From Squalus acanthias (Eukaryota): 64,000 nt of DNA. Position 1 is the first letter of the stretch; every line of letters starts with the position of its first letter. Positions 15,266 through 63,546 of the stretch are shown here, one piece after another. Position numbers and translations under genes: made by a program. The notes under the pieces were generated by a model. It was not told the origin of the DNA, searched no databases, and saw nothing but the letters and a program-made list of their open reading frames with translations. The stretch spans positions 127,412,001-127,476,000 of the forward strand of contig CM059431.1 of NCBI GenBank assembly GCA_030390025.1. Reading direction: 5' to 3'.

Positions 15266-17862
15266 GGGCTGGTTTTGCCAGCGCTCAGAGGGCAGGTTTG
15301 GAGGCGGGTCCACTGTCAAAATAGCAAAGATTGACAGCGGGTAGGAAACCCGCCTCCACGCGAGTTTCCCAGGTGTTGGGTCTGTCAGCGGAGAACTGAC
15401 CCGAAACCAAGCGGCAGGGGAGACAATTTAGATCATTAAATGGCTTGTTAACAGTCAATTTAATGCTATTTTGATGCTACCTTGCAATTTTACATCCTCC
15501 CCCATGGGTTACCCACTGCTCGGGGAACACGCCAGCTCACCCTGTCATGAGTTGAGTCTGCTTTGATGTATCTGATAAGCTCACAGCTGCAGAAGTGGTA
15601 TAAAGGATACCATGTTGCGGATGTTCAGTTTCAGAGCTCAAACTGTTGGTTACTGCATTTGTAAGACATATAGGGGGAGAAAATCTGTATCGCCCCGTTT
15701 GGGGTGCGATTATCGGCCGGGCGCAAAGTTTAGCGCCTGGCGCTAATTATCGCCTCCGACTGCAAACTTGGCTTTTATCGCCCCTGGAGGTGATTGGAGC
15801 GCTAAATCAGGCGCTGCACACCTGTCTTAAGACGCAAAGGCTGAGGAGCGAGGCGCTAACTCAGAGCGCGGGTGCAGCGCAGGTGATGTCAGTTTGCGAT
15901 GGAACACAGACACCGGACAGTTCTTAAAGGGGAGGGTTGATCTTGCTCTCCATCCACACCCTGCTCATTGCAGCCTTGAATCTCAGCCTAGAGAGACCTG
16001 TACATCAAATCTGTTGGAATGAACAATGGAGAGGCCCAGGGAAAGAGCTCAGAGTGCAGCCCCCCAAGTCTCTTCTAAATCAATGCAAGGAAGATCAAAT
16101 CAAAAAGAGCCTGCAAAGTGCTGCTCTGTACCGAAAACTCCTCAACACAGCTTTGAATATTTCCTGCAGTCTCTCTCTCTCACTCAGAATGCGTGCTGCA
16201 AAAGTTTTGCCGACCAAAAAAAGTCAGGAAGCGGTCGTCTTTAAATAGCGCTCCCCCAGTCCCTTCCTGACTGCAAAACGCTCCCCTCAACCTGTCGTTG
16301 CTAGCGGCAGGCGGTAAGACAGGGGGCGCCACTCAATATCCGGTCCGGGGCACTACAGGGGCTTTGCACGCTCGACTGGCGTCACGATCTGCGGGCGCAG
16401 GAGATCGTGGCGGTAGTGTTTGGTGCCGCCACAAAATGTCTAGTCAATTTCGTGAACAGCGCAAACATCACCGCGCATGGGCGCTAGTTGCTTTGCGCCC
16501 CATTAGCGCCCTCTTAAGGCGCTAACGGGAGGCGCAAACAAACCGAATTTTTCCCCCATAGAGATTTATTTAGCTTGCAAGTGTTTAGAGCCAACAGTAT
16601 AATTAGTGCCACCTCATTGGAACAACCTCTATCACCAGTGACAGATCAGTTCTGTCATCTTACCTGCAGCTGCCATCTAATGCAGCAACATTGCTGCCCT
16701 TGGAAAAATCAGACCTTGGTCCTCTGAATCCTTCCACGATCAGCCCCAACACCAACATCACCAACAACATGAACAACCTTCTCCGCCATCACATGATGCT
16801 GCACAGGACACAGGACATCAGCCTCTGCCAACATTGCTGCCCGGGAGGCCAGCGATGGCATCACCATGGCCAAATTTACTTCACTTGATGCTGTAAACCT
16901 TGGCTGCCACATGATGCGCCAGGTTGGCACAATCCCACACCAGCACCGTGAAGCATCCCTTTAATTTCCAAGCCATTCCATGCACACACATCACTATAGC
17001 GGGGGTGGGGGGGAGTTATGTCTCAACATTCACTGGAACTCAGGAAGACACTTCTCAAGGTGCGCACAGATCTGTCCAATAAGGTGAAGTGTTGAAAATA
17101 TGGATTTCACTGTATGACAACACATTACCAGAAACTTCACATGAACATTGGCTAAACCTTTCAAGTGCCTACCCTTGTGTCTTGTTAGTTTGTCTGCTTG
17201 CTGTATGATGAGGGTAATTGTGAGGGGTGGCTAGTGAGATGGGGAAGTGATAATCTAGATAGAAAGGGATGGGTGGAGGTGCAAGGTAAGTTGGTGTGAG
17301 TAAGGATGTGCAGGAGTAGGGTATGGAAGGCAGAGTGATGGGGATGCAATGAGTGCACAGCAGGATGAACTTTGCAGTAACGTTTTGTGATCTACTGAGA
17401 TCATTCAAAGGTTGGCGCCACTACTGTGCAATGTGCAACCAGACTGCGTTGATCTCCTGGGGAGGTCTCTTCCGCCCATGGGAAGAGAAGAGAATCTCCC
17501 TGCGTGCCGTGACTCCCTCCATAAGCATATGGAGGGAGTCATGCGTGAGCCTGGGTGAAGATGTGCACCTCTGTGCAGTGCTTGTCAGTGTTTTCGGCAC
17601 CTCAATGCTGTAGAACACTGACAGCACAACTGTCAAAATAAATGTGGCTGTGGTCCCTTTAAGGAACTGACTGATGACACGTTATCAAATGACGCCGACA
17701 GACCCACTTCCTGTTAATTGACCAGGAACCCTGCAGGGCGGGCTTAACAAGGCCAATCTACGGAAAATCATTTTCAGAGAGTGGCTGCAGACGGGAGCGG
17801 GACCGGAACCCGCTATCCAGCACTCCCGCCGTCATCCCACCTCCGCAGGGAAAATCCAGCCC
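15266..17862. mobile_element. Internally deleted Harbinger retaining Myb exon 1 (minus); split by a MITE
   Basis: TIRs GGGCTGGTTTT / GGGCTGGATTTT (rc), flanks TAA/TGA; ORF 17421-17636 PRLTHDSLHMLMEGVTARREILF..GRKRPPQ; colinear with 53633-55349. Confidence 0.8.
15673..16557 (-). mobile_element. Harbinger MITE of the 21106 family, copy 1
   Basis: TIRs GGGGGAGAAAAT / GGGGGAAAAATT; ATA on both flanks; ends homologous to 21106-25308; empty site visible in paralog near 54040-54060. Confidence 0.93.
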
Positions 17863-20900: not shown

Positions 20901-21277
20901 GTACAGCAACTTCAGGCGAGTGGTAAATGCATGTTTAAATGTCAACGTCCGAGTTGCGCCGATCCGCCATTAGCTTTGCGAAAACAGCATCTCGCTGTCT
21001 GCCTCACCATTGAAATGCATTGAATGGTGTGAAGTTGCTGTATTTACGCAGTAGATATGAACTAAGCCCACCACAGAAAGTTAAGTCTTGTCATTTGAAG
21101 TGTAAGGGGTAAAAATTCAGTTGGTTGCGCCTCCCGTTAGCGCCTTAAGAGGGCGCTAATGGGGCGCAAAGCCGCTAACGCCCGGGTGCAGCGATGTTTG
21201 CGCCGCTCGAGAACTTAACTAGAGATTGTGCGGCGGCGCTAAAACTTACCGCTGCGACCACCTGCGCGCGCAGATTA

Positions 21278-21426
21278 TGACGTCATTCCATGGTGCAACG
21301 CCCTTGTGGCGCCCCGGAGCGGAAATTGAGTGGCGCCCCCTGCCGTACCCCCTGGCGCTTCCAACGACCGGAAGACTGGAACGCTATCAATCGCTGTGGG
21401 GCTGGGGGGGGGCGCTATTTAAAGGG
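21278..21426 (+). promoter_or_regulatory. Putative transposase promoter (CRE-like TGACGTCA and TATA-like TATTTAAA)
   Basis: TGACGTCA 21278-21285; TATTTAAAGGG from 21416, ~200 bp upstream of the ATG; TATA-like box retained in the MITEs. Confidence 0.45.
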
Positions 21427-21617
21427 GGCCTCTTCCTGACTTTTTCTGTGGTCGACATTTATGCACCACTGGTTCTGAGAGAGAGAGAGAGATTCGGAGA
21501 GAGAGAGAGAGAGACTTCTACATTGACTCAACGCTTTGTGAGGTAGTTTTGCCTATTCATCCTAACTTTGTTGCTACTTTAGTTGCTGTCCCTCATTACT
21601 TTTCTTGCAAAGAGAAT

Positions 21618-22778
21618 ATGGGGGCTGCACTGATTGGGGGCGTCGTCCTGCTCCAGCTGAATCGGAGGATACAGAGACGCAGAGACAGAGTGGCAATGAT
21701 GGCCAGACGGAGGAGGGCCATCAGGCGCATGTACAGGAGAGCTTACCCTCCCAGGGTATATCGTGAACAGCTCTCCTACATCCATATGTCCGAGGAGCTG
21801 TGTTTGCGAAGGCTGCGATTCAGCAAGGAGGTGGTCACTGAGCTCTGCCACCTGCTGCAGCCAGATCTGCAGCCTCAACTGAGGTCCAGGACGTCTCTGT
21901 CGGTGGCAGTGAAGGTCACAGTGGCTTTGACCTTCTACGCCACTGGCTCATTCCAAGTTGCTGTTGGGGACCTCGCCAATATCTCCCAGTTCGCGGTGCA
22001 TCGCTGCAACCGGCAGGTCACAAATGCCCTCTTCAGAAGGAGACGAGAGTTCATCTCTTTCCCTATGACCCCAGACAAGCAGCGTGACCGCGCTCTGGGC
22101 TTTGCGAGGGTAGCGGGCTTCCCCATGGTGCAGGGCGCCATTGACTGCACGCATGTGGCTTTGCATGCTCCGCGTGAGAATGCAGAGGAATTCAGGAACA
22201 GAAAGGGGTTCCATTCCTTGAATGTCCAGTTGGTCTGTGACCACAGACAGCTGATACTTGCTGTCAATGCCCACTATCCTGGCAGCTGCCACGATGCTTT
22301 TATCCTGCGCCAGACTACTGTGGCAGAACTTTTCGAGGCACCGCATCAGCCAGTTGGTTGGCTTCTCGGGGACAAGGGGTATGCATTGAGCACCTGGCTG
22401 ATGACACCGCTCCGTACGCCAAACACCCCTGCTGAGCTGCGGTACAATGAAAGCCATCAAGCAACCAGGAACATTATTGAGCGCACAATCGGCGTGCTGA
22501 AACAACGGTTCCGCTGTCTGGACCATTCCGGAGGAGTCCTGCAGTACTCGCCTGAGCAAGTATCGAACTTCGTAGTCGTGTGCTGCATGTTGCACAACAT
22601 GGCAATCCTCAGGACCCAGCCAATGCCACCAGGCCTTGTAGCACCACCAGAGGAGGAGGAGGAAGAGGAGGAAGAGGACGAGGACGATGATCATCAGCAG
22701 CACCAAGGCGGGAGGGCGGCCCACAATGGCCAAACTGCAAGGGCCGTCCGTCAACGGCTAATAGCAAGCCGCTTCTAG
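21618..22778 (+). CDS. PIF/Harbinger DDE transposase (HARBI1-like family), 386 aa, uninterrupted
   Basis: ATG at 21618 within ORF 21549-22778; motifs GAIDCTH, NRKGFHSLNVQLVCD, PGSCHDA, LLGDKGY, RNIIERTIGVLKQRFRCL, CCMLHN; acidic tail. Confidence 0.95.
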   Translation: MGAALIGGVVLLQLNRRIQRRRDRVAMMARRRRAIRRMYRRAYPPRVYREQLSYIHMSEELCLRRLRFSKEVVTELCHLLQPDLQPQLRSRTSLSVAVKVTVALTFYATGSFQVAVGDLANISQFAVHRCNRQVTNALFRRRREFISFPMTPDKQRDRALGFARVAGFPMVQGAIDCTHVALHAPRENAEEFRNRKGFHSLNVQLVCDHRQLILAVNAHYPGSCHDAFILRQTTVAELFEAPHQPVGWLLGDKGYALSTWLMTPLRTPNTPAELRYNESHQATRNIIERTIGVLKQRFRCLDHSGGVLQYSPEQVSNFVVVCCMLHNMAILRTQPMPPGLVAPPEEEEEEEEEDEDDDHQQHQGGRAAHNGQTARAVRQRLIASRF

Positions 22779-23072
22779 GGCCCCTGCCATTGCTACCAAC
22801 ATTAATCAACCCAGCACGCAACCCCTAAGCCGGCCAAGGCACCAATAATTCCAACCGCCAGCCATGTATATTTTGAATACAGAAACTTATTTATTTTACA
22901 AACTCTGTGTGTGTCAATTCCTCATGACAAACTCATAGAAATAAACACAAAAAAACAGTCAATAACATAACTGGTTCTCACAACCTGGAGATAATGTCCA
23001 AAACACTAAACAAAAGTTGGACCATGAACCTCGGCCTTTAATAAAAAAATGACCAGCATTTTGTCTCACCTC

Positions 23073-24950
23073 CTACTTTTTGCCCTTCGAGGGTGATCTC
23101 CTTCCCTTGCGCACTTCCCCCCTTCTAACCCTACTGCTCCTCCATAATGGGACCTCAGTGGCTGCAGCAAGGCTGGTGGAAGGCTGCTGCTCGTCAGACC
23201 CTGACACTGCAGATGCCCCTCAAGGACGGCCTCGACCACTTCTGGGCCTGGAGGGCCCGGCTGCAGACTGCACCAACTCTGCATGGGTGGCAGCAGTCTG
23301 TCCTACAGGCGGTGGCAAGTGCAGTGGAGAAGTGACAGTGTTGGCAGCAGGAATGCTGTCATCGTGAGAGAGGACATCAACTCCCTGCTCGCCCGACACA
23401 CTGGCACTCCCACGGGGCAGCACTTCAGCATCCAGAGCAATCTGCCGGAGAACAGATTGCTGGCCTGCTGCGGCGCGGTGACAGCCCCGGGGACATGTGC
23501 ACGAACCATCGAGGTTGGCAGCAGTTTGTGCTCACGTGGCCTCAATCTGAGTCTGTATGAGAGCAGTCAGAGATGGGATCACGGCAGCCAGTGACTGAAT
23601 TGCAGCACTAAGCGTTAGTGTGGCATCCGCCTGTGCTACAGCAAAGTGCTCCACACTCCTTGCCAGTGACTCAATGCATTCGGGCACCCTTCCCACTGCA
23701 CCCATGAGCTCAGTGTGCATGCCCACCGCCTGGGTGTTCATATCTGCAATCAGCCGCTCCTCCTCTGCGTCCATTGCAGTAGGAGTGTCTGGCATACTCT
23801 CCCTCTTGGGGAGAAGGCCCCCGTTCTTCCCTACCCCCCCCCCATGGCGTTGCTGCAGCCCGCTGGGTCCTGGAGCTTCACCCTCATCAGCCCCTTCCCC
23901 CCTGCTCCCCTCCGGGGAAGGCGTGTTCCCAGTGTGGGCATGGGCTTCCTCGGGAGAGGGTGGCACTGATGCTCTGGCTTCCTCTTCCTCCTCAGCTGCA
24001 GCATCACTCCCAGTGGCAGCTTCAGGGCCCGTCTCCTCAGCTGGTGAATCACCATCTGAAAGCAGGGAGGTACAAGAGTGGCTTTAGCGTGAGGACAGGG
24101 TGGCAGTAAGGGAGGAATAAGTGCAGCGAGTTAGCAAGTTGGATTGAAAGTGTCAAAGGCTGGTGTTGTGAGGGACAAGTGGAAGGACAGAGGACAAAAA
24201 GGTGATGACCTTACCATTGCTGTCCAGAACGGGGTCGGCGTCTCCAGTGGCGACGGGACCGATCACCCGGCTTGCCACAATCCTGTGGACGCGCTCCTCC
24301 AGATCGCTGAGGGGTTGCAGCTGAGGCCGCCCTCCACCTGTCCGTTGCTGCTGTCTCCTATTATGAGCCAGCTTAGCCTGCAAGAAAAAGGACAGCATCT
24401 GAGTAAATATACAGCCATGGTCTTGCCTGATGTGCCTCCCATAGGTGAATAGCCCTTACTGTATGCAGCCATGGTCTTGCCTGATGTGCCTCCCATAGGT
24501 GAATAGCCCTTACTGTATGCAGCCATGGTCTTGCCTGATGTGCCTCCCATAGGTGAATAGTCCTTACTGTATGCAAAGTGTGGAATGTGTGTGTGTGTTT
24601 GATGAAAGGGCCATAGGTGTTGCATGAGTGTTGTGCATTGGGGTTTCAAGACCCTCTGGCCATAGAGTGAGGTTGAGATGGAGGGATGGAGAGGTATTGA
24701 GAAAAAGCCACTCACCCTGACGACCCGAGTGAGGTCGTTGAACTTTTTGCGGCATTGAGTATGGGTCCTGGGCACCATGCTGCTGGAGGAGACGCTCTGA
24801 GCCACCTCCCTCCACACTCTTCTGAACTCGCGTGGCAAAGGCCTCCTGCCACTCAGGGAACAGCATACATCGTCTGCGCTCCACTGCGCCAACCAGAGCA
24901 TCCAAGGCCCGCTCGGTGAAGCGATGAGCGCGTTCTCTCACCCTCTCCAT
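23073..24950 (-). pseudogene. Harbinger Myb/SANT (trihelix) gene, 3 exons (24950-24716, 24377-24215, 24055-23073) with one frameshift and two premature TGA
   Basis: MERVRERAHRFTERALDALV..., WREVAQSVSS..PRTHTQCRKKFNDL; GT-AG introns in consistent phases 0 and 1; 1-nt deletion ~24858; TGA at 23532 and 23220 in frame; basic tail RRGEVRKGRRSPSKGKK. Confidence 0.88.
24412..24573. repeat. 54-bp tandem triplication in Myb intron 1
   Basis: CAGCCATGGTCTTGCCTGATGTGCCTCCCATAGGTGAATAGCCCTTACTGTATG x3, one mismatch. Confidence 0.95.
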
Positions 24951-25974
24951 GCTTGGCAGCAAAATGGATTCACAGGTCTCTCCAGGCTGAGATTCAAGGC
25001 TGCAATGAGCAGGGTGTGGCTGGGGAGCAAGTGGCCCCCCCCGCTTTAAGAAGTGGCCGGCGCCAGTGTGTCTGTGTTCCCTCGCTAACTGGCAGCAGCT
25101 GCGCTGCGCTCGCGTGCTGAGTTAGCACCTCACTCCTTGGCCTTAGCGCCTTAAGACAGGTGTGCTGCGCCTGATTTAGCGCTCCACTCACCTCCCGGGG
25201 CGGTAAAAGTGAAGTTTCCAGTCAGTGCCGATAATTAGCACCAGGCGCTAATATTTGCGTCCAGACGATATTTGCGCCCCAAATGGGGCGCGACCTAATT
25301 TCTACCCCTAAGTATCCTTTTAACGCCATGATAAGTGTTAATTACTGCCAATCAACCTCTCTGGCACTGAAAATTAACTATTACAAGTGTGGAGTCTCAA
25401 TCCTTCAGTTATTAATTATTGTTGGGAGATTTGAAAATTGTCAAATATAATTTTATTTTTTTTACTTTCCTTTCTGTGTCTTTTTTCTCACTGGTGACTT
25501 GTGACCTCAGAAACAAGATCCTCTGTCAAGTATTCAGATTGGTGCGCGGCTGAAAAGTTCTAACATAAACTACTCGCACCACATCACTGACTGCTTCCTT
25601 GTGCAATGTTTTCTGGGACATATAACCTACTTGCAGTTACCTTGTGCTCTGCTACTGTGTTATAAACTTTTTGGTTTATTTCAAATTTGGAACTTCATGA
25701 AGATCCTTTGCAACTTCTATATATTTCTCAAAGGGCTCCAAAATGTGCCTACATTTTTACACCAATATGTCCCAATGAATACAACATTTAGCCACTGTTT
25801 CTTTGACTGCAGTGAGGTGGATTTACATAAACATTAATGTTTTGAGGTTGTATAGTTTAATATTAAAATGCTTTAGATAATATCCCCTCAGTAACAGTCA
25901 CAGCTCAATTATTTATTCCCAACAACCAGTTTTGCAAACATCCACAACACCAGAACAAAGTGTGTGGAAATAAA

Positions 25975-26866
25975 GGGGGAGAAATTCAGTATCGCCCCAT
26001 TTGGGGCGCAATTATCGGCCGGGCGCAAAGATTAGCGCCTGGCGCTTATTATCGCCACCGACTGCAAACTTGACTTTTATCGCCCCTGGAGGTGATTGCA
26101 GCACTAAATCAGGCGCTTCACACCTGTCTTAAGGTGCAAAGGCCGAGGAGCGAGGCGCTACCTCAGAGCGCTGGCGAAGCTCATGTAATGTCAGTCAGCA
26201 ATGGAACACACACACAATGGCACGGGCCAGTTCTTAAAGGGGATGGTTAATCTTGCTTTCCATCCACATCCTGCTCATTGCAGCCTTGAATCTCGGCCTG
26301 GAGAGACCTGCACATCAAATGTGCTGGAAAGAACAATGGAGAGTACCAGGCAAAGAGCTCAGAGTGCAGCCCCCACATTCTCTGCTAACTCGATACAAGG
26401 AATGGCAAATCAAAATGAACCTGCAAAGTGCTGCTCAGTACCCAAAACTCCTTCACACAGCGTTGAATCTCTCCAGACGTCTCTCCCTCTCTCTCTCAGA
26501 ATGCGTAGTTCAAAAATGGCACCAACAATAAAAGGCAGGAAGCGGTCACCTTTAAATAGCGCTCCCCTTTCCCTTCATAACTGCAGAACGCTCCCCTCAA
26601 CCTGTTGTTGCTCGCGTCAGGCGGTAAGGCAGGGGGCGCCACTCAATATCCGCTCTGGGGCGATACCGGGGCGTTGCGCACTCGACTGACGTCATGATCT
26701 GCCGGCGCAGGAGATCGTGGCGGTAGTGTTTAGCGCCGCCGCAAAATGTCTAGTTAATTTCGCGAGCGGCGCAAACTTCGCCGCGCCTGGGCGCTAGATG
26801 CTTTGCGCCCCATTAGCGCCCTCTTAAGGCGCTAACGGGAGGCGCAACCAACTGACTTTTTCCCCC
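25975..26866 (-). mobile_element. Harbinger MITE of the 21106 family, copy 2
   Basis: TIRs GGGGGAGAAATT / GGGGGAAAAAGT; flanks AAA/TAA; colinear with copy 1. Confidence 0.92.
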
Positions 26867-31227: not shown

Positions 31228-31367
31228 AAGCGGATGCTGTAAATCTGAAATGACAGCAAAAATGCTGTAAATACTCAGCAGGTCAGGCAGCATCTTGACC
31301 TGAGATGTTAACTCTGTTTCATCCACGGATGTTGCCTGACCTGCTGAGTATTTGCAGCATTTTCTGT
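31228..31367. mobile_element. Palindromic MER6-like/Penelope-like repeat inside Harbinger
   Basis: AAATACTCAGCAGGTCAGGCAGCATC ... GATGTTGCCTGACCTGCTGAGTATTT arms; same junction as 38466. Confidence 0.7.
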
Positions 31368-32633: not shown

Positions 32634-33553
32634 GGGGTCGATTTTCATTTTGGCCGATGGTCCACTCTGCCCGACCGATAACGTCGGTGGGAGGCCCAAT
32701 CAATTTTTTTTGATCGGGCTTCATTTAGATATGAGTGGCAAGTCTGCAGCATGTTTCAAGCACTGATGGGCAGCTCGCCAATCGGCCTGGCAGCTGGGAA
32801 CCTGATGGCTCCTTCAGAGAGCTGAGTGGGCAGTGTTCAATTAAAGGGAGGCAGCAATCATGGGAAGGGAAGGTGTGGGTGGAGGGGAGTGTGGAAGGTC
32901 CGGCAGTTGGTGGGTTAATTTTTATGGGGACAAAAGGAGAATTCACGCTCCTCCTGGCCCCACAAAATCATTAACAGAACTTACCTAGAGCCTTGTCAGA
33001 ATGGCCACCCACAGTCCCGATAAGGACCACTGGTTAGTCTGCTCTACGTTGATTTCCTCTGGGTCAACTTTGACCGCCTTCATCTGGCGTTAACGGGAGG
33101 GGGGGGCTAACAGCCTCAAAATGATGTCAGTAGTCTTACTGTTCCTGTAACACCAGGCGAAAGTTAACACCGGCAATGTGGCCAGCACCATTTTAAAAGT
33201 GGCCTGCCCCCCCAAGTGTCCAAATCACCCATCTGTTTCAGGTGATGGGCCCCTTTTAATATGGAAATCAGGGTCCTATGACATAAATAGGGCCCTGAAT
33301 GCCATTTTATGTTGGAACTGGTCAGAGCTTGCGCAGTTCAGGCTTCGACCAGTTCGGCGGGCGATGGAAGAGAAGAGGCCCAGCAAAGGAAAGTCTGGAA
33401 TTATTTTTGTGGGCCTTGGAGGAGCAAGCGGTGCCCACAAAAATAATCTGGAATGCTGGAGCCGCAAAATCGCGGGGGGCCATGTCACTGCCAGACTAGG
33501 CGGCCGACCAGTGCGCTCCGCCAGTCAGCCGCCCAGAAGTCAAAATAGACCCC
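32634..33553. mobile_element. Harbinger-like MITE
   Basis: TIRs GGGGTCGATTTT / GGGGTCTATTTT (rc). Confidence 0.7.
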
Positions 33554-34398
33554 ATTATATGGGGCTTGCACTGTGCATCCATCAGCCGCTGGAACACTAA
33601 CATTTCACTTGGGTGCTAGGTACATCATAGGACCCCAGCTTGCATCAACTAATGAAGCTCCCGCCTATTTCGAGTGGGAGTGTTGGAAGCCTATTTCCTG
33701 ACCCGCTTCAAAATTGTGGCAGGCCGGGCATGTTTGCACTGACTTTCCACGCTCACTGTTAACTCAAGGCAGAGTCTGAATGTGACTAAAACATTCAAGT
33801 AAGTAAACCACATAATGATTCAGTAATTGTAGTCTGACTAAAATCAATTGTGATCCACCCCCACAATGAGTTACTAATTGCTGTTCATAAACTGCTCGTG
33901 TTAAAATGACTTGTCAAACATTTGCTGTAATGTGAACAGGTGTTACTAATGCCCAATTCCATTTTTATTACATGTGGACATTATTCGAATTTCCATCAAG
34001 TGGATTGTAACCCCTTTTTAATAACAATAATAGGGAAGAAACAGTATCCTGAAAATGTCCCTGATATGAATAGGAATGTTAGTTGTATATTCTGGGGCAC
34101 ATAGTACAGCAATCTGAGGAATTGGATCAACTCAACAATACTCTGTAACCATCTTCCAAAGCAGCACAGAAATCTTTCATTGGTTATGGAAATAGACCAT
34201 TGACCTCGACGTTGACATCGCTGTGCTGTTAACAATTTGCATTTCCAGCAATTTGCGAGCTGAAGGGTGAGGTAAGCAGTCCAGTCCATGTCGCTCGCTG
34301 TGAGATGTGTCACACAAGCAATTTCTGCGGTCAATTAATTGTGTTCTTAATTTCATGTTAAATACTCTTAGAAAGCTAACAATTTAGTGTTGAAAGAT

Positions 34399-37994: not shown

Positions 37995-40315
37995 GGCCTA
38001 GAAATTCCCAGTTGTTTTGAAAAATTCCCAGTTAAGGTTTTGAAAAAATGGCAACTGCCTCGTTTCCATCCGCCTCCGGCACGGGACACGGCAGCCGTCA
38101 TTTTGGTGAGTGTCATAGCGCTGCCGTTGCCAGCGTTGGCCTCTCAACTTAAATGAGCAGATCGTGATGTCAATCAGATTGCCTGATTTGACACCACGAC
38201 TGATATTTTGGACGTCGCTGCACACCACAACGCCCTGTCCTAAATACGCACAAAAAAACGTGCATGAAGCAGCCCTGCAGAGACGTTGTCGGTGCTTCTT
38301 AAAGGGACACACACATCTTTCAGGTAAGTTCAGATTTTGGACTTTTTAAAATATTTTATTGAAGTAGTGCCTTGTGCAATACATTTATAAAGTTGTTAAT
38401 GTGTGCAGAGAGTGCTGCTGGATGCTTGCAAGGCATTGGTTGGTAAAAGAAGGCCTCTGAGAAGACAGAAAATCTGGAAATACTCAGCAGGTCAGGCAAC
38501 ATCTGTGGAGAAAGAAACAGAGTGAACGTTTCAGGTCGAGATGCTGCCTGACCTTCTGAGTATTTCCAGATTTTCTGCTTTTATTTCAGATTTCCAGCAT
38601 CCGCAGTATTTTGCCTCTGAGAAGAGCACTTGCTCACAGTGCTGGGGGGGCACATGGAGCTGAAGCAGAGGCAGCAAAGGGGACAAGCTGTTCGCAGAGA
38701 GAAGAGAAAGAAGCAGAATAGGAAGATGCAGAAGAGGAGGAAGCGGAAGGAAGGATGCAACCCAGACAGCCCCTTTCTGGCCAGGATATCCGAGATGGAA
38801 TCATCCGCCTGTGGTACCAATGACCACAAGCCCAATTCCTCTTTCAACATTAGTCCCACACCTTACCTTCCCTCTGTTACTGACCATCACAGCATCCTCT
38901 TGGCCACAATGCTGAAATAAAAGCCACCACAAAGCAAACTTTCCAATCCAACTTTATCCATATATGCATCCAATATGACATCAAGAAATAAACTAATCAC
39001 CCTTCTGCATTCCCTTAGTGACTGTCTTGTGCGTGCCTTTGCCTATCCTACTGATGTCTCGCAGTGCTACCCCAGTGGCTGCAGCATGGCTGGTGGAAGG
39101 CTGCTGACTTTCAGTGGGGGACACTGCAAATGGCCTTGCAAGATGACCTCGAGGAGCTGGTGGCTGGGAGTGTCAAATCGAGTGACGGTGTTTCTTCTTC
39201 TTCTTCTTCTTCTACCACCACTGCTACCGCCACCACCACCAGAAATGAGGAAGTCACAGGGGCAGGGTTGTGATGAGGGGAGGCCAGAAAGCAAGAGCTG
39301 CATGCTTACACCATGCGCAGTTTGTACATCAGAAGCGATTGTGGGATGAGGTGAAAGTGGAATGTGAGAAGGAGGATACGTATCAGGATACCAGCATCTT
39401 GTATTCTTTCAGCCCTGCTGCTGGCCAAGGACTCAGCCATGCCCCTGCCAAGAATGGCCAGCACTATTTCCCCTAAGGGGGGATGGCAAAGCAAGGAATG
39501 GGAGGTGTGCCTTGTGTTTATGTTGGTAGGTGAATGATGGGTTGGTGTGTGGCGGGGGGAGGTCGTGCATTGAGCAGTGTGTGAGGCTAGTCGTGCAGTT
39601 GGTAGGAGACAGCTTTTGAAGATGCATTCACTGACCCTGAACACTGGTCTGAGGTCATGAAACTTCTTTGGGCACTGGAGCTAGGTCCTGAGGGCAACAC
39701 TGGTGGCAGTGACGGTTTTGGTGATCTAGTCCCACATCCTTCTTTCTGGAGGGCCTCCTGGCCTCCTGTGGGTAAAGGATCTCTCTTGCAGTGTTAACTC
39801 CCTACACAAAACTGGAGTGCTGCGTGCAGAGCCCTGGGTCCCTTTCCCTGGCTTGTTGAGCCATTTGTGTTAGCACCTTTACCATTTTTTTAGGTGCAGA
39901 AGGCAATTCAGCTTTAAGTGCTGAAGACTGCCATTTTGGAGTTATTTTTAATGCTTTTTTCAGAAGGCAGTTGAGCTCTAAAGGCTAAAGACTGCCTATT
40001 TTTAAATGATTTTTACTTTTATTTATTTTAGAAGGCAGTTCCCCTTTCAGGGCTCGAGACTGCTTTCTAAAATGCAGCCTAGCTTTAAGAAAATGCTGCC
40101 TTGCTCCAGGGACGCTATGGCCATGCTACATTGGACCTCCTGCTGAGCTCACCGCCTGAAACAACACGTTGCACGATAGGTACTGTGCTCCAATCATTGA
40201 AATCAGCAGGCAGCACCAAAATAATGGTGCTGTCTGCGCTCTTTTTTTCAGGCACGAGTTAATCTCGCCCCGCAATGGCATCGCCCGTTTTCCCACATTA
40301 TTGGATTTCAAGACC
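37995..40315 (+). mobile_element. Internally deleted Harbinger (transposase tail on +, Myb remnants on -)
   Basis: TIRs GGCCTAGAAATTC / GGTCTTGAAATCC (rc); interior homologous to 28008-31850. Confidence 0.75.
38466..38612. mobile_element. Palindromic MER6-like/Penelope-like insertion with 13-bp TSD
   Basis: GCCTCTGAGAAGA at 38453-38465 and 38613-38625 flanks an inverted-repeat insert. Confidence 0.75.
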
Positions 40316-40472
40316 ATAATCTTTGCTGACTTGGAAGGAGGGTAGATGTTGATTTCTACATCAGTGCTCTCTGGGATTTTGTTTACCTCTGGGATGTGAC
40401 TGATTCAGTTTAAATGCCATTATTGATGTGTCATTCCAGATTCAGCTAATTAATAACATAATAAAACCTTTT

Positions 40473-41369
40473 GGGGGGAAAATTCAGTTGATTTGCGCCT
40501 CCCGTTCGCGCCTTAAGAGGGCGTTAATGGGGCGCAAAGCAACTAGCGCCCGGGCGCGGTGATATCTGCGCCTCTCGCAAAATTGACCAGACATTTTGCG
40601 GCGGCGCTAAACACTACCGCCACGATCTCCTGCGCTGGCAGATCGTGACATCAGTCGAGTGCGCAACGCCCCGGTCGCGCCCCGGAGCGGATATTGAGTG
40701 GCGCCCCCTGCCATACCGCCTGCCGTTAGCAACGACAGGTTGAGGGGAGCGTTTTGCAGTCAGGAAGGGACTGGAGGAGCGCTATTTAAAGGCGAACACT
40801 TCCTGCCTTTTTTTGTTGGTGACATTTTTGCACCACGCATTCTGAGAGAAAGAGAGAGAGAGAGACTTCTGGAGAGATTCAACGCTGTGTGAAGGAGTTC
40901 TGGATACTGAGCAGCACTTTGCAGGTTCATGTTGATTTGCCCTTCCTTGTATCTATTTAGAAGAGACTGTGGGGGCTGCACTCTGAGCTCTTTCCCTGTT
41001 TCTCGCCATTGTTCTTTCCAGCAGATTTGATGTACAGATCTCTCCAGGCCGAGATTCAAGGCTGCAATGCGCAGGATGTGGATGGAGAGCAAGATCAACC
41101 CTTCCCTTTAAGGACTGGCCGGCGCCATTGTGTCTGTGTTCCATTGCTGACTGACATCACATGAGCTTCGCCAGCGCTCTGAGGTAGCGCCTCACTCCTC
41201 GGCCTTTGCGCCTTAAGACAGGTGTGTAGCACTGATTTAGCGCTCCAATCACCTCCAGGGGCGATAAAAGCCAAGTTTGCAGTCGGAGGCGATAATTAGC
41301 GCCAGGCGCTAAACGTTGCACCCGGCCGATAATTGCGCCCCAAACGGGGCGATACTAAATTTTTCCCCC
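40473..41369 (+). mobile_element. Harbinger MITE of the 21106 family, copy 3
   Basis: TIRs GGGGGGAAAATT / GGGGGAAAAATT; flanks TTT/TTA. Confidence 0.92.
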
Positions 41370-44888: not shown

Positions 44889-45660
44889 ATATACAGGGCC
44901 TCAGTTTAATATCTCATATGAAAGGCAATACTTCCAATAATACAGAACTCCATCAATATTACATGGAATGCATTATAGGGGTGAATTTTTGCTGGGATTC
45001 TCCCCCATGTCCACCAGGAGAACAGCTGCAGAAATTCACCCCTATGTGTTCAAGTGTTGGAGTAGTTTTCTCTAATTCTTGACCTTTTGAATGAAAAGCA
45101 AGAGTGCTGCTAACTGATCCAGGCTGACACTTAACAATCTGAGCTGAACTTTGAAGCTCCATTGCTCATAACTCTGTGACATTTTAATCTGGTTAACTTC
45201 TGTCCTTTATTCTGTTCCTCTCCATAAATTGCTGGAGTATGGTTCTATGGGCATTTGCTGCCCTTCAGTACCACTTCCAAGGAGCCATTTTTCATGTGTG
45301 AGCTTTAGCAATGACTGTTCATAAGATATGTGAGCATGGAATGTACTGCAGTCAAATCCTATCCTGTTTCATCCAATGTCAACACATACTCACATTCTAG
45401 GATGAAATGCTGGATAGCATTCTGCATTCAGTATGCTGGTTCAATTTGTCATCCTTAACCCAGGAGCACTGAGACAAATTGTTGCACTCCAATTGTAAAT
45501 TTGCTTGATTTAATTGGCAGCATTCTCATCAAGTACTGTGCCTCCAACATAGTGCATGTTTTCCCTTCTCTGTATAATCGGAAGGTTCTGTATTAAATTA
45601 TCATGCTAAGACTTGAGGCTGACATTCAAGTGCAGTACTGAGAGAAGGCATAATTGTTGG

Positions 45661-46590: not shown

Positions 46591-47789
46591 GTAGTGATAT
46601 TCCTTTGGCCTGTTCAAATTGATGTTAAACATCCCGTGGTCTTACTTGAAGAAATATACAGCACAAGTGAGGAACAACAAGTGAAGGTGGCAGCAGAGAA
46701 TAACAAACAGCCTGAATAGAGGGCAAGGGCATATATTCCTGTGCTGCGAGGCCTACAGATTCTTAGGGCTCAGTTTTCCCAGCCCCGAGGAGGCAGGTTT
46801 GGAGGCGTGCGAGTTGTTAAAATCGCCAAAACTGGCAGGCGGGCCCGTTCCCACCTCCATCCCGCCTCCGAGCAATTTTCCCAAGTGCGTGTTTTCTGAC
46901 CCGCTTTCCATCCCGCCTCCAAGAGGCGGGATAGGCCCTTAAGGCCCTTAACAACCACTTAATTGCCTCTATAATCACATTTTGAGAGGCCTTTCTGTTT
47001 TTTTGTCATTCCCTCATCCTACACACCTCCTCTGGAACACGCCAGGTAATCCTGGTGGCCTCACAAGTGGATTGCTTACGAACAGCTGCAGCTCCACCAT
47101 TACAAAGGAGTTTTCACCGATGATCATCTGCAGGTGGCAGAACTTTGTTGTTTCAGGTTTGGGGGAACTTTTAGCAGGCATACTCAGTGTTGTGGAAGTT
47201 TGGAGCCTGACACCCATCTCCAGTGTGACCTCCTTGGAAACCCCTCTCCCCACCTTGACTAAGCGCTTCCTCAACTGAGGCATATACCAGTGGCATGGCG
47301 ACCATTTAATTCCTTTCCTCCTAGATATCAGATTCGGATGAAGACCAGCCGCGGCAGCAGCAGAACCATGAGCAACAGCAGCACCAACAGCAGGAACATT
47401 AACAGGAGCGCCAAGCTGCTAGTCACCCACCTGAAAATGCACAGGCCAGAAGGCGCCAGAGCCAGAGCGCCACCGTATTGCTGCCCGGGATGCAAGGGAC
47501 GCACTCATGTTGGTCACATTTGCTTAGCCTGCACAATCAAACAGTTTAGCCTTGCACCTTCTTACCAGAGCATCGACAATGGACAAGAACCTGCGGATTC
47601 CTCTCACTCTGACCACCATACTGACAATTGCAAGTCACCCTAAGCCCTCAATGTGGAAGTCCCATTAGCGAAATGACACACACCACAGCTGCAACAGTTT
47701 GCCATCAGAATTTTTTATGACAATAAGCAACTGATGGCTTCTCAAAATTAAACACAACATTACACCCAAGTGACAACCCTTGTGACTAC

Positions 47790-49502
47790 TTGTGCATTAT
47801 CTTCCTCTTATGCATGCTCCTACGTGGTGCTTCCCCTGTGGCTTCAGCAGATGTGGAGGCCCCTTGCTCACTTTCTTGCTGCTCTTGTCTCGACACCTTT
47901 GGCGGGTGTCCTCTGGGGTTGCGAGCCTGTTAGGGCTCGGCAACAGTCTGCTGCTCCTGCGGCTGTGCAGGGGTTGAGACGCCGATCTCAGTTGGGTGGG
48001 GACTTTGGTGGGACTCTGACCGAGGGCTCTGCAGTGGCATGGTCGTGTGAGCGCTTGGAAAGGAGCCCCCACTTCCTTGTTGTCTGCCACAAACATCCCT
48101 CTCATGGGTCAGCCCCACTTCAGAGCTAGCAAGTGGCTGGACAGCACTTTGCTGCACTGCAGGGGGGCCATGAGGACCCGTTTCTGCACTGGAAGTCCTA
48201 CTCCAGAGGACTTTCATGAAGGTCTGGTTTGTTTGCTCAATAGCTGACCATCGCTCCTCAAGAGATGTCAGTCTATTCTGAACAATTGCCATGTTTTCCA
48301 TACCCTGGCGACTAAGCTCCTCCGTGGACGTAGCCATCCTTTCCTCTACCGTAGCCATCCTCTCCTCTACGGTAGCCAGCCTTACCATGGAGGTAGCCAT
48401 CCTTTCCTCTACCTATGTCCACCATCTGCTGATGCTCACTTGTGAGCTGTGATACACCAGGTGACAAGACTACTCTATCTCGCGAAGGTCCCACCGAGGT
48501 GTGAGTGTCTGCGCTGGTGCTGGGTGCTCTGAATTCTGCTGACGCTGCGCCATCAGAGGTTGCAGCTTCCTCTGAGGAGTCTGGAAGCTCAGGCTCTTCC
48601 TCCTGGACAGTGGGGATGGGGGCTCTCGATGGTCCTGTGGGGGAGTAAAGGAAAGAGTTAGAAATGTGAGGTCAAGGTTACATGAACATTGAAAAGTGCA
48701 GATGATCATAAGTCAATCTGTTAGAGCATCAGATTCATTATCAGTGACTCATGCAATGTCAATGAGAGAGATGCCAAACTCTTCTGTCACCAGCTTGCTG
48801 CGATGCGCCCATCTGTCCGTCCCCCACTTGGGAATCCTCCTCGATTCTGGTGATCTCCAGGGCTGCCTCCTCCCAGGGGGTGAGCTGGGCTACTGAGGGT
48901 GGCCCTCCTCTGGCCATGGCTCTTTCTCTCTTATTGTGGGCTCTCTTTTCCTGCAATGAGGGACACAAGTGGAGATTGAATGAGAATGAAGGATTGAATG
49001 CAGAGAATCCATTGCATAGATGCTTAGAGGGATACAAAGGACCCTCCCTGTGTGCTGAAAGTTGTTGTTGTCATGGCATCACAGTGATAGGGAGTGTGAG
49101 GGCTGCATGGTCGAATAGTTAAGTGAATGTGACCTTAGAGAGAGAGGGAGTGGGTAAGGGTGCAGGCATGTAAGTGTCAAGTGGAATGTGGAGGAAGAGG
49201 CTGGCAAAGCAGAGTGCTGGTGAGGACTGGCGATGGGGATCAGATTGAGGGTGATGGGAAAGTCATACTCACTTTTCCTGTTCGGAGAAGATCATGAAAC
49301 CTCTTCCTGTACTGCAGCCAGCTTCTGCAGCTCAGCGAGATGGAGCTGACCTCCTGGGCCACACAGCTTTTGTCTGCTGGGGTGGCTTTTTTCTCCCTGA
49401 GGAAGGGAACAGCACCTCCTTCCTGGATCTCGCTCCCTCCACCAGAGCTTGGAGGGAGGGCTCATCGAAGCGTGGAGCACACTTTGGCCTACTGCTGGAC
49501 AT
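47790..49502 (-). pseudogene. Myb/SANT gene remnant, 3 exons (starts 49502, 48950, 48634)
   Basis: APRFDEPSLQALVEGARSRKEVLFP..GRKKPP; EKRAHNKRER...GGPP...LTPWEEAALEI; coiled-coil-like segment in ORF 47930-48400. Confidence 0.8.
48330..48413. repeat. 21-bp coding-phase tandem repeat (heptad MATVEER)
   Basis: GTAGCCATCCTTTCCTCTACC x4, third copy degenerate. Confidence 0.85.
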
Positions 49503-49824
49503 AGTTGATGAAGAAGGCGAAGACAGCAATGGCCATAAAGGTTGCAGTCTCCAGAAGAAGCAAGGCTACTTGCAGGCCTTAAATCCAACAGCATTGATGA
49601 TGTCATCGGAGGCGACTTTCTGTCTGAAAAGACTCATTGGGCCAGGGGTTCCCACACACAGGAAATCAATTGGCCAATTAGGGGAAAATCCCACTTTTTC
49701 AGCACTTCAATTAGGAGTTGGGGTCCTGGCACGATTTCCACCTGACACGCTCCAGCCCGCCCACACCGACAAAATCCAGCCCTTAGTCTGTGCAAGGCTT
49801 CAAAAAGTTTGTAAATTTTTAAAG

Positions 49825-51613: not shown

Positions 51614-52478
<865 letters not shown>

Positions 52479-52564
52479 ATACATGCTTCTATCAATTGGC
52501 ATTTATGTCAAGCTATGTCACAGTGCAACTGGATTTAAGGCTATCACAGTCACAAGGAAATAAA

Positions 52565-53632: not shown

Positions 53633-55349
53633 GGGGGGAATTTTTCAGGGGGTCAGCGGGCGCGTTCGGTGGCGGGTCGCATGGGAAATGTTTTCTTTTG
53701 CTAGCAGGTCGGGACCCCGCTGTCAACCCACCGCCATGTGACTTTCCCAGATGTTGGGTCTGTCAGCGCTGAACAGACCCGACATGCATGGGTGGGGGAG
53801 GCAATTCAGGTCATTATGACCTTGTTAACAGCCCATTAAGAAGTATTTTGAGCTCACCTTACCATTTTACGAGGTTGCCCACAGGGTCCACACTGCTCGG
53901 GGATCACATCAGGTAAGCAGGTTGGGAGTTGTATGACCATGGAATCATCTCATTACTTGACAGCTGCAAATGTGCTATAAAAGCTCCCTTCTCACAGCTG
54001 TTCACTTTCCAAGCTCCGAAGCTGCTGCTTACTGCATTTGGAAGACAGATTGAGCTTTATGCAGGTTGCAAGTGTTTGGAGCAAACTCTCTATCCAGTGT
54101 CACCTCATTGGAACAACCTCTCTCACCACTGACAGATCGCTTCTGTCATTTCAAGTTCACCTGCCATCTATTCCATCAGCATCAGTGCCCTTGAAATTAT
54201 CTCACCTCAGTCCTCAGAATCCCACCACAATCAACCCTAATACTAGCAGCACCAGGTACACCAGCAGCACCAACAACACCAACCTTCTCTGCAATCACCT
54301 GATGCAGCACAGGACAGAGGGCTTCAGCACCCAACCACATTGCTGCTCCGGATGCCAGGGATGGCCTCACCATGGTCAGATTTACTTCACTTGATGCTAT
54401 ACACACTGGCTGCTGCAAGATGCGCCAGGTTGGCACCACCCCACACCAACACCATAAAACATCTCTACAATGCCCAAGCCATTCCTTTCACACTCATCAC
54501 CATTGCGGGGGGGGGGGCATCGCTTTGTCTCACCATTCACTGAAACTCACTAAGCCACTTCCAAAGGTGCACACAGATCTGTCCAAGAATGCAAAGTGTT
54601 GAAAATAAAAGTGTCAATGTTTGACAGCACATTAACAGAAACTTCACATGAACATTGGCAAAACATCCATGTGCCTACCCTTGTGTGTTGTTAGTTGGTA
54701 TGATTGGACTAGGATGAGGGCTGGCTAGTGAGATGGGAAGTGATAATGTAGATAGAGAGGGATGGGTGGAGGTGCAAGGTAAGTTGGTGTGAGTAAGGAT
54801 GTGCAGGAGTAGTGTAGGGAAGGCAGAGTGATGGGGATGTGATGAGTGGCACAGTAGGATGAGGTTGAGTGTGGCTTTGCAGTAATGCTTCGTGATCTAC
54901 TGAGATCATTGAAAGGTTTGCGCCACTGCAGCCTGGTCCTCCTTATGACATCCCTACTTGTATCCTCCTGTGCAATGTGCAACCAGGCTGCATTGGTCTC
55001 CTGGGGAGGTCTTTTCCACCCATTGGAAGGGAAGAGAACCTCCCTGCGTGCTGTGACTCCCTCCATAAGCATATGGAGGGAGTCACGGGAGAGCCTGGGT
55101 GCAGCTGTGTAGCTCTGTCAGCACAACTGTCAAAGTAAATTTGCGCAGGGTCCCTTTAAGGAAACCAGCTGATGACGCGTCATCAAATAACGTCATCAGA
55201 CCCACTTCCTTCAATTGGCCAGCAAATGCGCTGGGCGGGCTTAACAAACCCAATAAAATCTACACAGCGGGCTGAAGCCAGCAGCGGGGTCGGGACCCGC
55301 CACCGACGTCGCCTGCCACAGACCCGCCGAGGTGAGGGAAATCACGACC
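53633..55349. mobile_element. Internally deleted Harbinger retaining Myb exon 1 (minus)
   Basis: Colinear with 15266-17862; ORF 54725-55072 MLMEGVTARREVLFP...AWLHIAQE...RTRLQWRKPFNDL. Confidence 0.8.
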
Positions 55350-55992
55350 ATGGTCAGGCTGCAGGAGAGTGCACAGTTCTGTGACAACAATCTTTGGGAA
55401 CTGTAGTCTCTGCAGACAAATGTTTCCGGTTTGTCCAGGGGTGATTGTTTTTGCACGTGTGGGAGCATAAGGTTGGGTATTAACTGAGCATCTAAGGTAG
55501 AACTGTACCTGTCTGATCTGCCTAATTAGAACTTCCTCCAAAACTGAGGAATGCGCAGAGGAGCAAAGAAATATCCCTGGGCAAAAAGGCAGTGCTAACA
55601 AATGGAGTGCAGCTTTAAGAATCTGATAGTAAGTGTGCTGGTTGCAAAATAGCTAAACTGCAAAGAAGCATGAAAATAGGGGGGAAAATACGTAGCAGGT
55701 ACTCACAGCAGTTCCAACAGTAAGCCTTAGGCTTCAGCACCCCGTGATGTGATGAAGGAGCACCAAATGTGCTGCAGTGTTGTGGACACTTGATTGTATT
55801 ATTGGCCCATTATGTATTATATACTGAATTAAGACTTTTAAAGGAATTATATACAATTCATGCAGGTACACAAGTTTATGCTCTGAATATCTTTTATCCT
55901 GAATAAACATCATTTTTGACAGATCAATCTTAAGTTCCTTTATATAGTTTGCTAAGCTCAGCTGGGATTCTTGGAAACTGGGTATGCAAGGT

Positions 55993-57350
55993 GTCAGCCT
56001 TGGCTTAGTAGTAGCAGTCTCACCTCTGAGTCCATAGGTTGTGGATTCAAGCCCCACTCCAGAGACTTGAGCAGGTAATCTAGGCTGCCGCTTGTGTGTA
56101 GTACTGAGGGAGTGTTGCAGTGTCAGAGGTACCGTCTTTTGGATGAGACATTGAACCGGGGACCCATGTGCCCGCTCAGGTGGACATAAAAGATCCCACG
56201 GCACTAGTCGAAGAAGAGCAGAGGATTTTTCCTGGTGTCCTTGCTAACAGTTATCCCTCAACCAACACCTAAAACAGATGTGGGGGAAAAATTCAGTTGG
56301 TTTGCGCCTCCCATTAGCGCCTTAAGAGGGCGCTAATGGGGCACAAAGCAACTAGCGCCCGGGCGCGACGATGTTTGCACCTCTCGCGAAATTGTCCAGA
56401 CATTTTGCGGCAGCGCTAAACACTCCCGCCACGATCTCCTGCGCCCGCTGATCGTGACGTCTGTCGAGCGTGCAACGCCCCGGTAGCGCCCCAGACCGGA
56501 TACTGAGTGGCGCCCCCTGCCTTACCGCCCGCCGCTAGCAACGACAGGTTGAGGGGAGCATTTTGCAGTCGGGAAGGGACTGGGAGAGCGCTATTTAAAG
56601 GCAACTGCTTCCTGCCTTTTTTGGTCGGCGACATTTTTGCACCACACATTCTGAGTGAGAGAGAGAGACTTCTGGAGATATTCAACGCTGTGTTGAGGAG
56701 TTTTGGGTACTGAGCAGCACTTTGCTGGTTCATTTTGATTTGATCTCCCTTGCATCGATTTAGAAGAGACTGTGGGGGTTGCACTCTGAGCTCTTTCCCT
56801 GGGTCTCTCCATTGTTCTTTCCAGCAGATTTGATGTACAGGTCTCTCCAGGCCGAGATTCAAGGCTGCAATGAGCAGGGTGTGGATGGAAAGCAAGATCG
56901 ACCCTCCCCTTTAAGAACTGGCTGGCGCCAGTGTGTCTGTGTTCCATTGCTGACTGACATCACATGAGCTTCGCCAGCGCTCTGAGGTAACGCCTCGCTC
57001 CTCGGCGTTAGCGCCTTAAGAGAGGTGTGTAGCGCCTGATTTAGCGCTCCAATCACCTCCAGGGGCGATAGAAGCCAAGTTTGCAGTCAGAGGCGATAAT
57101 TAGCGCCAGGCGCTAAACTTTGCGCCCGGCCGATAATTGCGCCCCAAACAGGGCGATACCGAATTTCTCCCCCATGATCTTTATTAATTTCATTGCTGTT
57201 TGTGGGACCTTGCTGTGGGCAAATTGGCTGCCACGTTTCCTACAGTATATTAGTGACTACACTTCATAAGTACTTAATTGGCTGTAAAGCACTTTGGGAC
57301 ATCCTGAGGTCATGAAAGGCACTATATAAGTGCAAGATCTTTCTTCTTTC
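55993..57350 (+). mobile_element. DeuSINE split by MITE copy 4
   Basis: 5' part 55993-56281 and 3' part 57174-57350 join to give a full copy like 5113-5560. Confidence 0.85.
56282..57173 (+). mobile_element. Harbinger MITE of the 21106 family, copy 4
   Basis: TIRs GGGGGAAAAATT / GGGGGAGAAATT; TSD ambiguous (ATGT left, ATG right). Confidence 0.92.
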
Positions 57351-63452: not shown

Positions 63453-63546
63453 TGATCATGATGTGGAGATGCCGGCATTGGACTGGGGTGGACAAAAATG
63501 AGAAGTCGCACAACACCAGGTTATAGTCCAACAGATTTATTTAATT

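What the first reader, a model, noticed from the sequence alone, without database searches (positions are those of the whole stretch)
56282..57173. MITE family is a promoter-to-promoter fusion cut just after both start codons
Seen in all four copies (15673, 25975, 40473, 56282): the left arm runs to the transposase start region (parent AGAGAATATGGGGGCTGCACT, copy 4 AGAGACTGTGGGGGTTGCACT). It joins directly to the reverse complement of the first ~9 Myb codons (parent MERVRERAH, MITE MERPRERAQ). Both inward-facing TATA-like boxes and 5' UTRs are kept. Inference: each copy may be a mobile CpG-rich convergent-promoter cassette able to make overlapping transcripts complementary to both parent 5' UTRs, a possible self-regulating or host-regulatory module.
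Basis: partly seen in the sequence, partly recalled or inferred. Interest (0 to 1): 0.7.

Follow-up and report, generated by a model that had tools for sequence, protein, structure and literature searches.

The report
Shark Harbinger MITE keeping both promoters
This is an abundant miniature jumping gene of a shark-like genome, left over when a two-gene transposon lost its middle, and although the cut falls just after both start positions and leaves both promoter-like boxes, the copies look like ordinary silenced passengers rather than a working two-way switch.

Summary
The anatomy is real. Four 885-897-bp copies (87-91% alike) join the left arm of a convergent Harbinger, ending 14 nt after the transposase start position, to the reverse of nine Myb codons, with both TATA-like boxes and 5' UTRs kept. 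But all four share one junction, so this is one founder deletion, not four observations. The transposase ATG is absent from 4 of 4 copies (GTG or TGG), and the 'parent' in the window is only a ~80% relative. Of six Harbinger derivative families in the window that I could map, only this one breaks at both starts; three break inside the genes and two stop short of the Myb TATA box. Keeping both boxes is expected for about 53-77% of random deletions of such an element; hitting both starts within 30 nt is rarer (0.02-0.3% per family), so chance alone is not fully satisfying. CpG sites mutate 4-10 times faster than GpC controls, as in germline-methylated repeats, and the boxes show no significant extra constraint. 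Transcription from either arm could not be tested. Verdict: a high-copy Tourist-like Harbinger MITE; the convergent-promoter function is untested and unlikely for most copies.

The parts
56282..57173 (+). MITE copy 4 (892 bp), inserted in a SINE (HE1-like; name recalled, not from a call); flanks ATG / ATG with one extra base on the left
56282..56293 (+). left 12-bp terminal inverted repeat (11 of 12 match to the right one)
57162..57173 (-). right 12-bp terminal inverted repeat
56301..56420 (+). left subterminal cluster of TT(A/T)GCGC-type motifs, partly palindromic; candidate Myb-protein binding sites (inferred by analogy with Harbinger3_DR)
   Evidence: motif positions; analogy from PMC9710019 passage
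56592..56599 (+). TATA-like box of the transposase promoter, offset 313 from the left end in the MITE, the parent-like element and a divergent Harbinger end
56600..56771 (+). presumed transposase 5' UTR with short (AG)n; CpG-poor; 38-80% to the parent-like element per 40-nt window
56772..56785 (+). remnant of the first 14 nt of the transposase ORF; start position reads GTG, not ATG
   Evidence: start position supported by homologues
56786..56812 (-). first nine codons of the Myb-like gene (MERPRERAQ); junction between 56785 and 56786
56813..56908 (-). presumed Myb 5' UTR, about 82-85% to the parent-like element
56909..56915 (-). TATA-like box of the Myb promoter (offset 259 from the right end; similar boxes at offsets 191-201 in four other window elements)
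57008..57126 (-). right subterminal cluster of the same motifs
40473..41369 (+). MITE copy 3, flanks TTT / TTA
25975..26866 (-). MITE copy 2, flanks TTA / TTT
15673..16557 (-). MITE copy 1, perfect 3-bp duplication (ATA), nested in another Harbinger derivative whose sister copy near 54050 lacks the insertion
21106..25308 (+). 4203-bp Harbinger with TAA duplication; sister subfamily (about 80%) of the MITE's true donor
21618..22778 (+). intact 386-aa transposase ORF (DDE_Tnp_4, E 2e-39); best relatives are from sharks and rays (up to 65% identity)
24717..24950 (-). Myb-like gene exon 1 with a frameshift near 24840-24853 (further exons towards 23050)

Best explanation
A non-autonomous PIF/Harbinger element (Tourist-like MITE) of a cartilaginous fish. 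Shown: one internal deletion removed almost all coding sequence from a convergent transposase/Myb element and left both ends with TIRs and subterminal motifs; the product spread to very many copies. Inferred: the deletion arose in repair of an excision gap; the element is moved in trans by transposase plus Myb protein of its donor or a sister subfamily; both promoters came along because in a convergent element they lie within 260-315 nt of the ends; most copies are methylated in the germline and decay neutrally. The closeness to both start positions is then a one-off outcome, perhaps sieved by the advantage of small, non-coding derivatives, with no promoter function needed.
For: Shared junction in 4 of 4 copies. 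TIRs and 3-bp duplications; empty site for copy 1. 27,788 contigs laid from about 55% of DNA run X1, summed depth not dropping across the junction bins, and none of the 20 loose ends shown (592 not shown) at the junction: the fused form is abundant. Holders with half or more of the words in five coded organisms plus one unlabelled run. 1 of 6 mappable derivative families breaks at both starts. Random arms keep both TATA boxes in 53-77% of draws. CpG transitions 7.1% against 2.2% at other C/G (P=2.5e-6); 36-39% of CpG against 4-9% of GpC in two independent copy pairs, a ratio as high as or higher than in seven other repeat pairs (1.6-5.3; older pairs are saturated). The 15 secondary deletions shown inside the family have scattered ends, 12 in a single contig each. 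Non-coding short Harbinger variants are known (PMC8437027 passage; PMC2836001 passages).
Against: Under uniform arm lengths both breaks fall within 30 nt after the starts in only 0.02-0.3% of draws, 0.1-1.8% for at least one of 6 families, 0.3-4.6% for one of 15; the 30-nt target was chosen after the fact, and with +-60 nt it is 10-26% for one of 6. The TATA-like boxes vary a little less than background (1 of 23 columns against 14.6%, not significant). The candidate binding motifs lie within about 140-170 nt of the ends, so they do not explain why the arms are 504 and 388 nt long. CpG decay is an average over four copies and does not exclude a minority of active copies or somatic activity. Two of the five comparison families were mapped against 59-71% relatives, not their donors.
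Confidence: 0.7

Rival explanations
1. Selected breakpoints: derivatives that keep both whole promoters (open chromatin, bound host factors, easier access for the transposase complex) but drop the coding sequence amplify best, so successful families end at the ORF edges. The promoters serve mobility, not gene regulation.
For: Low null probability of the double coincidence; this family is very abundant and has four copies in the window against one or two for the others; secondary deletions that remove promoter parts appear in single contigs. Internal sequences change mPing mobility in yeast (PMC9921582 passages); mPing's success is ascribed to sharing no coding sequence with Ping (PMC5724284 section 18); four mPing subtypes break in a narrow region (PMC3814204 passage).
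Against: One event only; 5 of 6 mappable families break elsewhere and two of them (B, G) have two copies each in the window. Copy numbers of the other families were not measured. Single-contig deletions are expected anyway from decay of dead copies. mPing breaks upstream of the ORF1 transcript start and moves while methylated.
Confidence: 0.16
2. One reading: copies are active convergent promoters whose overlapping transcripts (about 260 nt between the presumed starts) form double-stranded or antisense RNA against both parent 5' UTRs and so damp the autonomous element.
For: Geometry and retained boxes. Unlike mPing, this MITE shares both 5' UTRs with its donor's mRNAs, so small RNAs from it could hit them (inference; mPing facts). 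Convergent transcription from Sleeping Beauty ends leads to RNAi-dependent silencing of cargo (PMC3343047 abstract).
Against: CpG decay typical of methylated repeats; no significant constraint on the boxes; no Rfam match and no unusual fold between the boxes (z -0.49); the Myb-ATG reading frame is 18-117 codons and not conserved among copies; a repressor of its own mobiliser would hinder the family's spread unless a diverged sister subfamily moves it (inference).
Confidence: 0.1
3. One or more of these four copies has been co-opted as a host promoter or enhancer.
For: Harbinger MITEs are enriched at liver-specific open chromatin in Xenopus tropicalis (PMC12676858 abstract).
Against: Copies sit in a repeat-dense stretch, two of them inside other repeats; the ORF scan (180 aa or more) showed no host gene I could recognise (short exons not excluded); all four show ordinary decay.
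Confidence: 0.04

Closest known systems
mPing / Ping of rice (Tourist-like MITE of PIF/Harbinger); PMC5724284 passages and section 18, PMC2836001 and PMC9921582 passages
   Same: Simple deletion derivative of a two-gene element, non-coding, 3-bp duplication, far more abundant than the donor, methylated copies.
   Different: mPing is 430 bp and breaks at 253, upstream of the ORF1 transcript start at 296; this MITE is about 890 bp and keeps both presumed transcript starts and both 5' UTRs facing each other.
Harbinger3_DR / Harbinger3N_DR of zebrafish (Sinzelle et al. 2008, seen only as cited in PMC2836001 and PMC9710019 passages)
   Same: Vertebrate Harbinger with transposase plus Myb-like protein, repeated subterminal motifs, non-autonomous partner.
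   Different: I did not compare sequences or breakpoints with the zebrafish elements; binding of the motifs here is untested.
Harbinger-Snek non-autonomous variants of sea kraits (PMC8437027 passages)
   Same: A family with full, one-gene and short non-coding deletion variants, as seen side by side in this window.
   Different: The passages read give no breakpoints relative to start codons or promoters.
Convergent transcription from Sleeping Beauty ends (PMC3343047 abstract)
   Different: Different superfamily, engineered vector, activity measured; here activity is not shown.

Membership tests
PIF/Harbinger non-autonomous element (Tourist-like MITE) | short terminal inverted repeats | tested here: met
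   12-bp TIRs, 10-11 of 12 matching in all four copies; shorter than the 25-50 bp given for teleost elements
PIF/Harbinger non-autonomous element (Tourist-like MITE) | 3-bp target duplication, typically TAA/TTA | tested here: met
   TAA/TAA for the parent-like element; copies ATA/ATA (with empty site), TTT/TTA, TTA/TTT, and ATG/ATG with one extra base; only 1 of 4 copies is perfect
PIF/Harbinger non-autonomous element (Tourist-like MITE) | derived from an element with a DDE transposase and a Myb-like gene | tested here: met
   arms align to 21106-25308, which hits DDE_Tnp_4 and Myb_DNA-bind_4/5; it is a ~80% relative, the true donor was not recovered
PIF/Harbinger non-autonomous element (Tourist-like MITE) | no coding capacity, high copy number, uniform structure | tested here: met
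   no transposase ATG, no conserved ORF; 27,788 contigs laid in one run, which is not a copy number
PIF/Harbinger non-autonomous element (Tourist-like MITE) | small size (100-500 bp in PMC2836001) | tested here: not met
   885-897 bp; 'large MITE' or simply non-autonomous Harbinger is the stricter label
PIF/Harbinger non-autonomous element (Tourist-like MITE) | mobilised in trans by transposase plus Myb protein | not testable with these tools
   needs a transposition assay
Active convergent-promoter cassette | two inward-facing core promoters present | tested here: met
   sequence boxes only, at offsets conserved with other window elements
Active convergent-promoter cassette | unmethylated, constrained promoter sequence in copies | tested here: not met
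   CpG transitions 3.3-fold over other C/G and 4-10-fold over GpC; box constraint P=0.13; indirect, four copies
Active convergent-promoter cassette | capped transcripts from both boxes; overlapping RNA or small RNAs | not testable with these tools
   no stranded raw RNA reads available; see Tried and rejected
Active convergent-promoter cassette | same breakpoint rule in independent families | tested here: not met
   1 of 6 mappable families in this window; genome-wide test not possible

The most novel reading that the evidence does not exclude
A very successful vertebrate MITE family was selected for ending exactly at the edges of both ORFs: it is the largest possible non-coding derivative, a mobile pair of face-to-face promoters whose overlapping RNA matches both 5' UTRs of its donor subfamily, letting it silence that donor while riding on diverged sister subfamilies, and seeding very many two-way promoters through shark genomes.
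Probability: 0.1. Interest if true: 0.65.

Novelty: new member of a known kind. Interest (0 to 1): 0.27.

Why it matters
As it stands it is one more abundant Harbinger derivative, from a lineage where Harbingers are little described (PMC9179366 found none in elephant shark and asked for other cartilaginous fish to be checked). It is a neat test case: unlike mPing it shares both 5' UTRs with its donor's mRNAs, so it can test whether MITE success needs or avoids promoter and UTR sequence. If the promoters were active in many copies, the family would be a large source of antisense RNA and ready-made promoters in shark genomes.

Tried and rejected
No whole genome is held, so no genome-wide breakpoint census. 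Sequencing runs: no RNA holder listed; six runs were only guessed to be RNA. I laid 4 of the 24 listed runs. In the two guessed-RNA contig sets (X15, X17) summed depth relative to DNA run X1 was about 3-6-fold above the median over the transposase 5' UTR bins and 1.6-3.5-fold over two Myb 5' UTR bins, but about 0.6-1.15 at the two junction bins, with a further rise outside the boxes; the between-box block ranked 5th and 4th of 30 circular shifts. The tool calls this depth a poor measure of expression, strand and starts cannot be seen, and the two ratios share a denominator: inconclusive, kept only as a lead. Raw-read run X22 gave 29 partial reads from a relative. The true donor was not found: none of the 20 loose ends shown lay at the junction; a 31-nt arm pattern had 0 matches in metagenome and viral contigs; the transposase found no locus in metagenomes; two Myb protein searches found nothing. 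Structured RNA: no Rfam match; whole-element z -2.79 on 20 shuffles, which I ascribe to terminal repeats and palindromes, and z -0.49 between the boxes. Micro-peptide from the Myb ATG rejected (18, 72, 73, 117 codons). Microhomology at the junction cannot be fixed without the donor; the parent-like element has TGA at both sides, 2 nt off the observed join (by eye). Other MITE-like elements of the window (near 27154, 32630, 19487, 13629, 4330/6838 and more; bounds set by eye) had no mappable donor and were left out of the 1-of-6 count. Earlier-finding look-ups by sequence and by words returned nothing.

Full report
Observation. Self-comparison of the window finds four copies of an 885-897-bp element, 87-91% alike, and a 4203-bp element at 21106-25308 to which both arms align. 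The long element has 12-bp TIRs, a TAA duplication, an intact 386-aa DDE_Tnp_4 transposase on the plus strand and a convergent Myb/SANT gene with a frameshift in exon 1. Its transposase's best relatives are from sharks and rays, up to 65% identical, so the host is a cartilaginous fish by inference. The start at 21618 is credible: it lies 45 residues before an RVYR motif, and 13 of the 39 homologues that showed this motif (of 120 fetched) begin with MG 44-66 residues before it.

The junction. In 4 of 4 copies the left arm ends 14 nt after the transposase start position and joins the reverse complement of nine Myb codons. Three corrections follow. The start position reads GTG (3 copies) or TGG (1), never ATG; in the read data an A at this place is not among the 40 best-supported differences shown, 154 not shown. 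The shared junction means one founder deletion. The long element is 78-81% alike in the main blocks and 65% over the transposase 5' UTR, much less than copy to copy, so it is a sister subfamily. The donor was not found.

Promoter-like parts. TATTTAAA lies at offset 313 in the MITE, in the long element and in a divergent Harbinger end at 748(-); a (C/T)TTAA(A/G)G box lies at offset 259 on the Myb side and at 191-201 in four other elements. Conservation of position across divergent elements suggests real core promoters in autonomous elements (inference). CpG richness is confined to the outer arms; the stretch between the boxes has obs/exp 0.28-0.34. Candidate Myb-binding motifs lie within about 140 nt of the left and 170 nt of the right end; a 9-bp subterminal motif is bound by the Myb protein of Harbinger3_DR (PMC9710019 passage).

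Is the breakpoint special? Six derivative families in the window could be mapped to a relative. Family B (15263-17862, 53633-55350) and element C (46772-49783) join the transposase's Q-rich leader to its last ~25 codons and keep Myb exon 1 or the whole decayed Myb gene; family G (near 28006-31910 and 38002-40320) keeps Myb exon 1; D (51616-52479) and E (18338-19186) lose similarity before the Myb TATA box, judged against 59-71% relatives. Only the present family breaks at both starts (1 of 6); other MITE-like elements were unmappable and left out. In simulations with uniform arm lengths both TATA boxes survive in 53-77% of draws, so promoter retention needs no special cause. Both breaks within 30 nt after the starts occur in 0.02-0.3% of draws (0.1-1.8% for one of 6 families, 0.3-4.6% for one of 15); with +-60 nt, 10-26% for one of 6. 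The target was chosen after seeing the data, yet the coincidence remains the one point that the plain reading does not fully absorb.

Are the copies active promoters? Against a four-copy majority, transitions hit 32 of 448 CpG cells and 32 of 1481 other C/G cells (P=2.5e-6; 29 tied columns set aside, several at CpGs). In two independent pairs 36-39% of CpG against 4-9% of GpC sites differ by a transition, ratios of 9.7 and 4.4 against 1.6-5.3 in seven other repeat pairs, which are older and partly saturated. DNA run X1 shows 81 C>T or G>A places against 28 A>G or T>C. This is the mark of germline methylation; the high CpG content reflects youth. The boxes vary in 1 of 23 non-CpG columns against 104 of 712 overall (P=0.13). 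No Rfam family, special fold or conserved peptide was found. Direct tests of transcription were not available; what the run data gave is told under Tried and rejected.

Abundance. Twenty of 24 listed runs hold the stretch or part of it, 14 with half or more of its words. X1 laid 27,788 contigs from about 55% of the run, with no fall in summed depth at the junction; this is not a copy number. Loose ends matching the long element's subfamily were seen in three runs, and 15 secondary deletions shown (18 not shown) have scattered ends.

Mechanism. Most likely (0.70): a single repair-born deletion of a convergent Harbinger gave a non-coding element with intact ends that was amplified in trans; promoters are passengers and copies are mostly methylated. 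Rivals: selection for promoter-bearing, ORF-free derivatives that move better (0.16); active convergent RNA regulating the donor (0.10); host co-option of these copies (0.04). For rice mPing, success is ascribed to sharing no coding sequence with Ping, and the element moves while methylated (PMC5724284, passages and section 18). mPing breaks upstream of the ORF1 transcript start, whereas this MITE keeps both UTRs, which is the real difference and makes the antisense idea worth one experiment.

Literature. Read: PMC5724284 (passages, section 18), PMC9179366, PMC9921582, PMC3814204, PMC8437027, PMC9710019, PMC2836001 (passages), PMC3343047 and PMC12676858 (abstracts). Sinzelle et al. 2008 only as cited. 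Seven searches (listings only) showed no title or abstract on a shark Harbinger MITE or on a start-codon breakpoint rule; the library lacks most subscription papers, and repeat databases such as Repbase or Dfam were not searchable, so the family may already be catalogued. No supplements were read. The SINE name HE1 is recalled.

Verdict. Observation mostly right; interpretation right in geometry, unsupported in function. New member of a known kind; interest 0.27.

Noticed in passing
window 46772-49783, 15263-17862, 53633-55350: Harbinger derivatives in which the transposase's Q-rich leader is joined to its last ~25 codons (IAARDARD-type tail), removing the whole catalytic core at about the same places in two families ~63-66% alike there; element C keeps the full but decayed Myb gene. 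Common ancestor or repeated deletion between low-complexity tracts; resembles the solo-ORF variants of Harbinger-Snek.
   Followed up: partly
window 21106-25308: Harbinger with an intact 386-aa transposase but a frameshifted Myb exon 1 and a 54-bp unit three times over (24408-24575) in the first Myb intron; it appears nested in another repeat starting near 20471.
   Followed up: partly
window 8717-12941 and 1-748(-): A decayed full-length convergent Harbinger of another family, and the left end of a third family whose TATA-like box sits at the same offset (313) and whose ORF also starts MGA.
   Followed up: partly
window 29658-31221: About 106 copies of a 15-bp unit inside Harbinger derivative G, expanded from the E-rich tail region (3 units at 38700-38749 in the sister copy); gives 530-610-codon open frames.
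   Followed up: no
flanks of 21106-25308 and the four MITE copies: T four bases after the duplication in 5 of 5 and A four bases before it in 4 of 5 (copy 4 read with a one-base shift), matching a palindromic target preference.
   Followed up: partly
window 4330-5040 and 6838-7560; 13629-14220; 19487-20010; 27154-28009; 32630-33560; 44979-45043: Further MITE-like elements with inverted ends and no mappable donor; bounds set by eye.
   Followed up: no
window 29242-29352 and 63458-63534: A near-identical (99%) ~77-bp sequence, at 29242-29352 extended into a palindrome and inserted in derivative G.
   Followed up: no
protein P0007: A database protein with a Myb domain and a Harbinger DDE domain in one 523-aa chain; may be a gene-model artefact or a fusion.
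   Followed up: no
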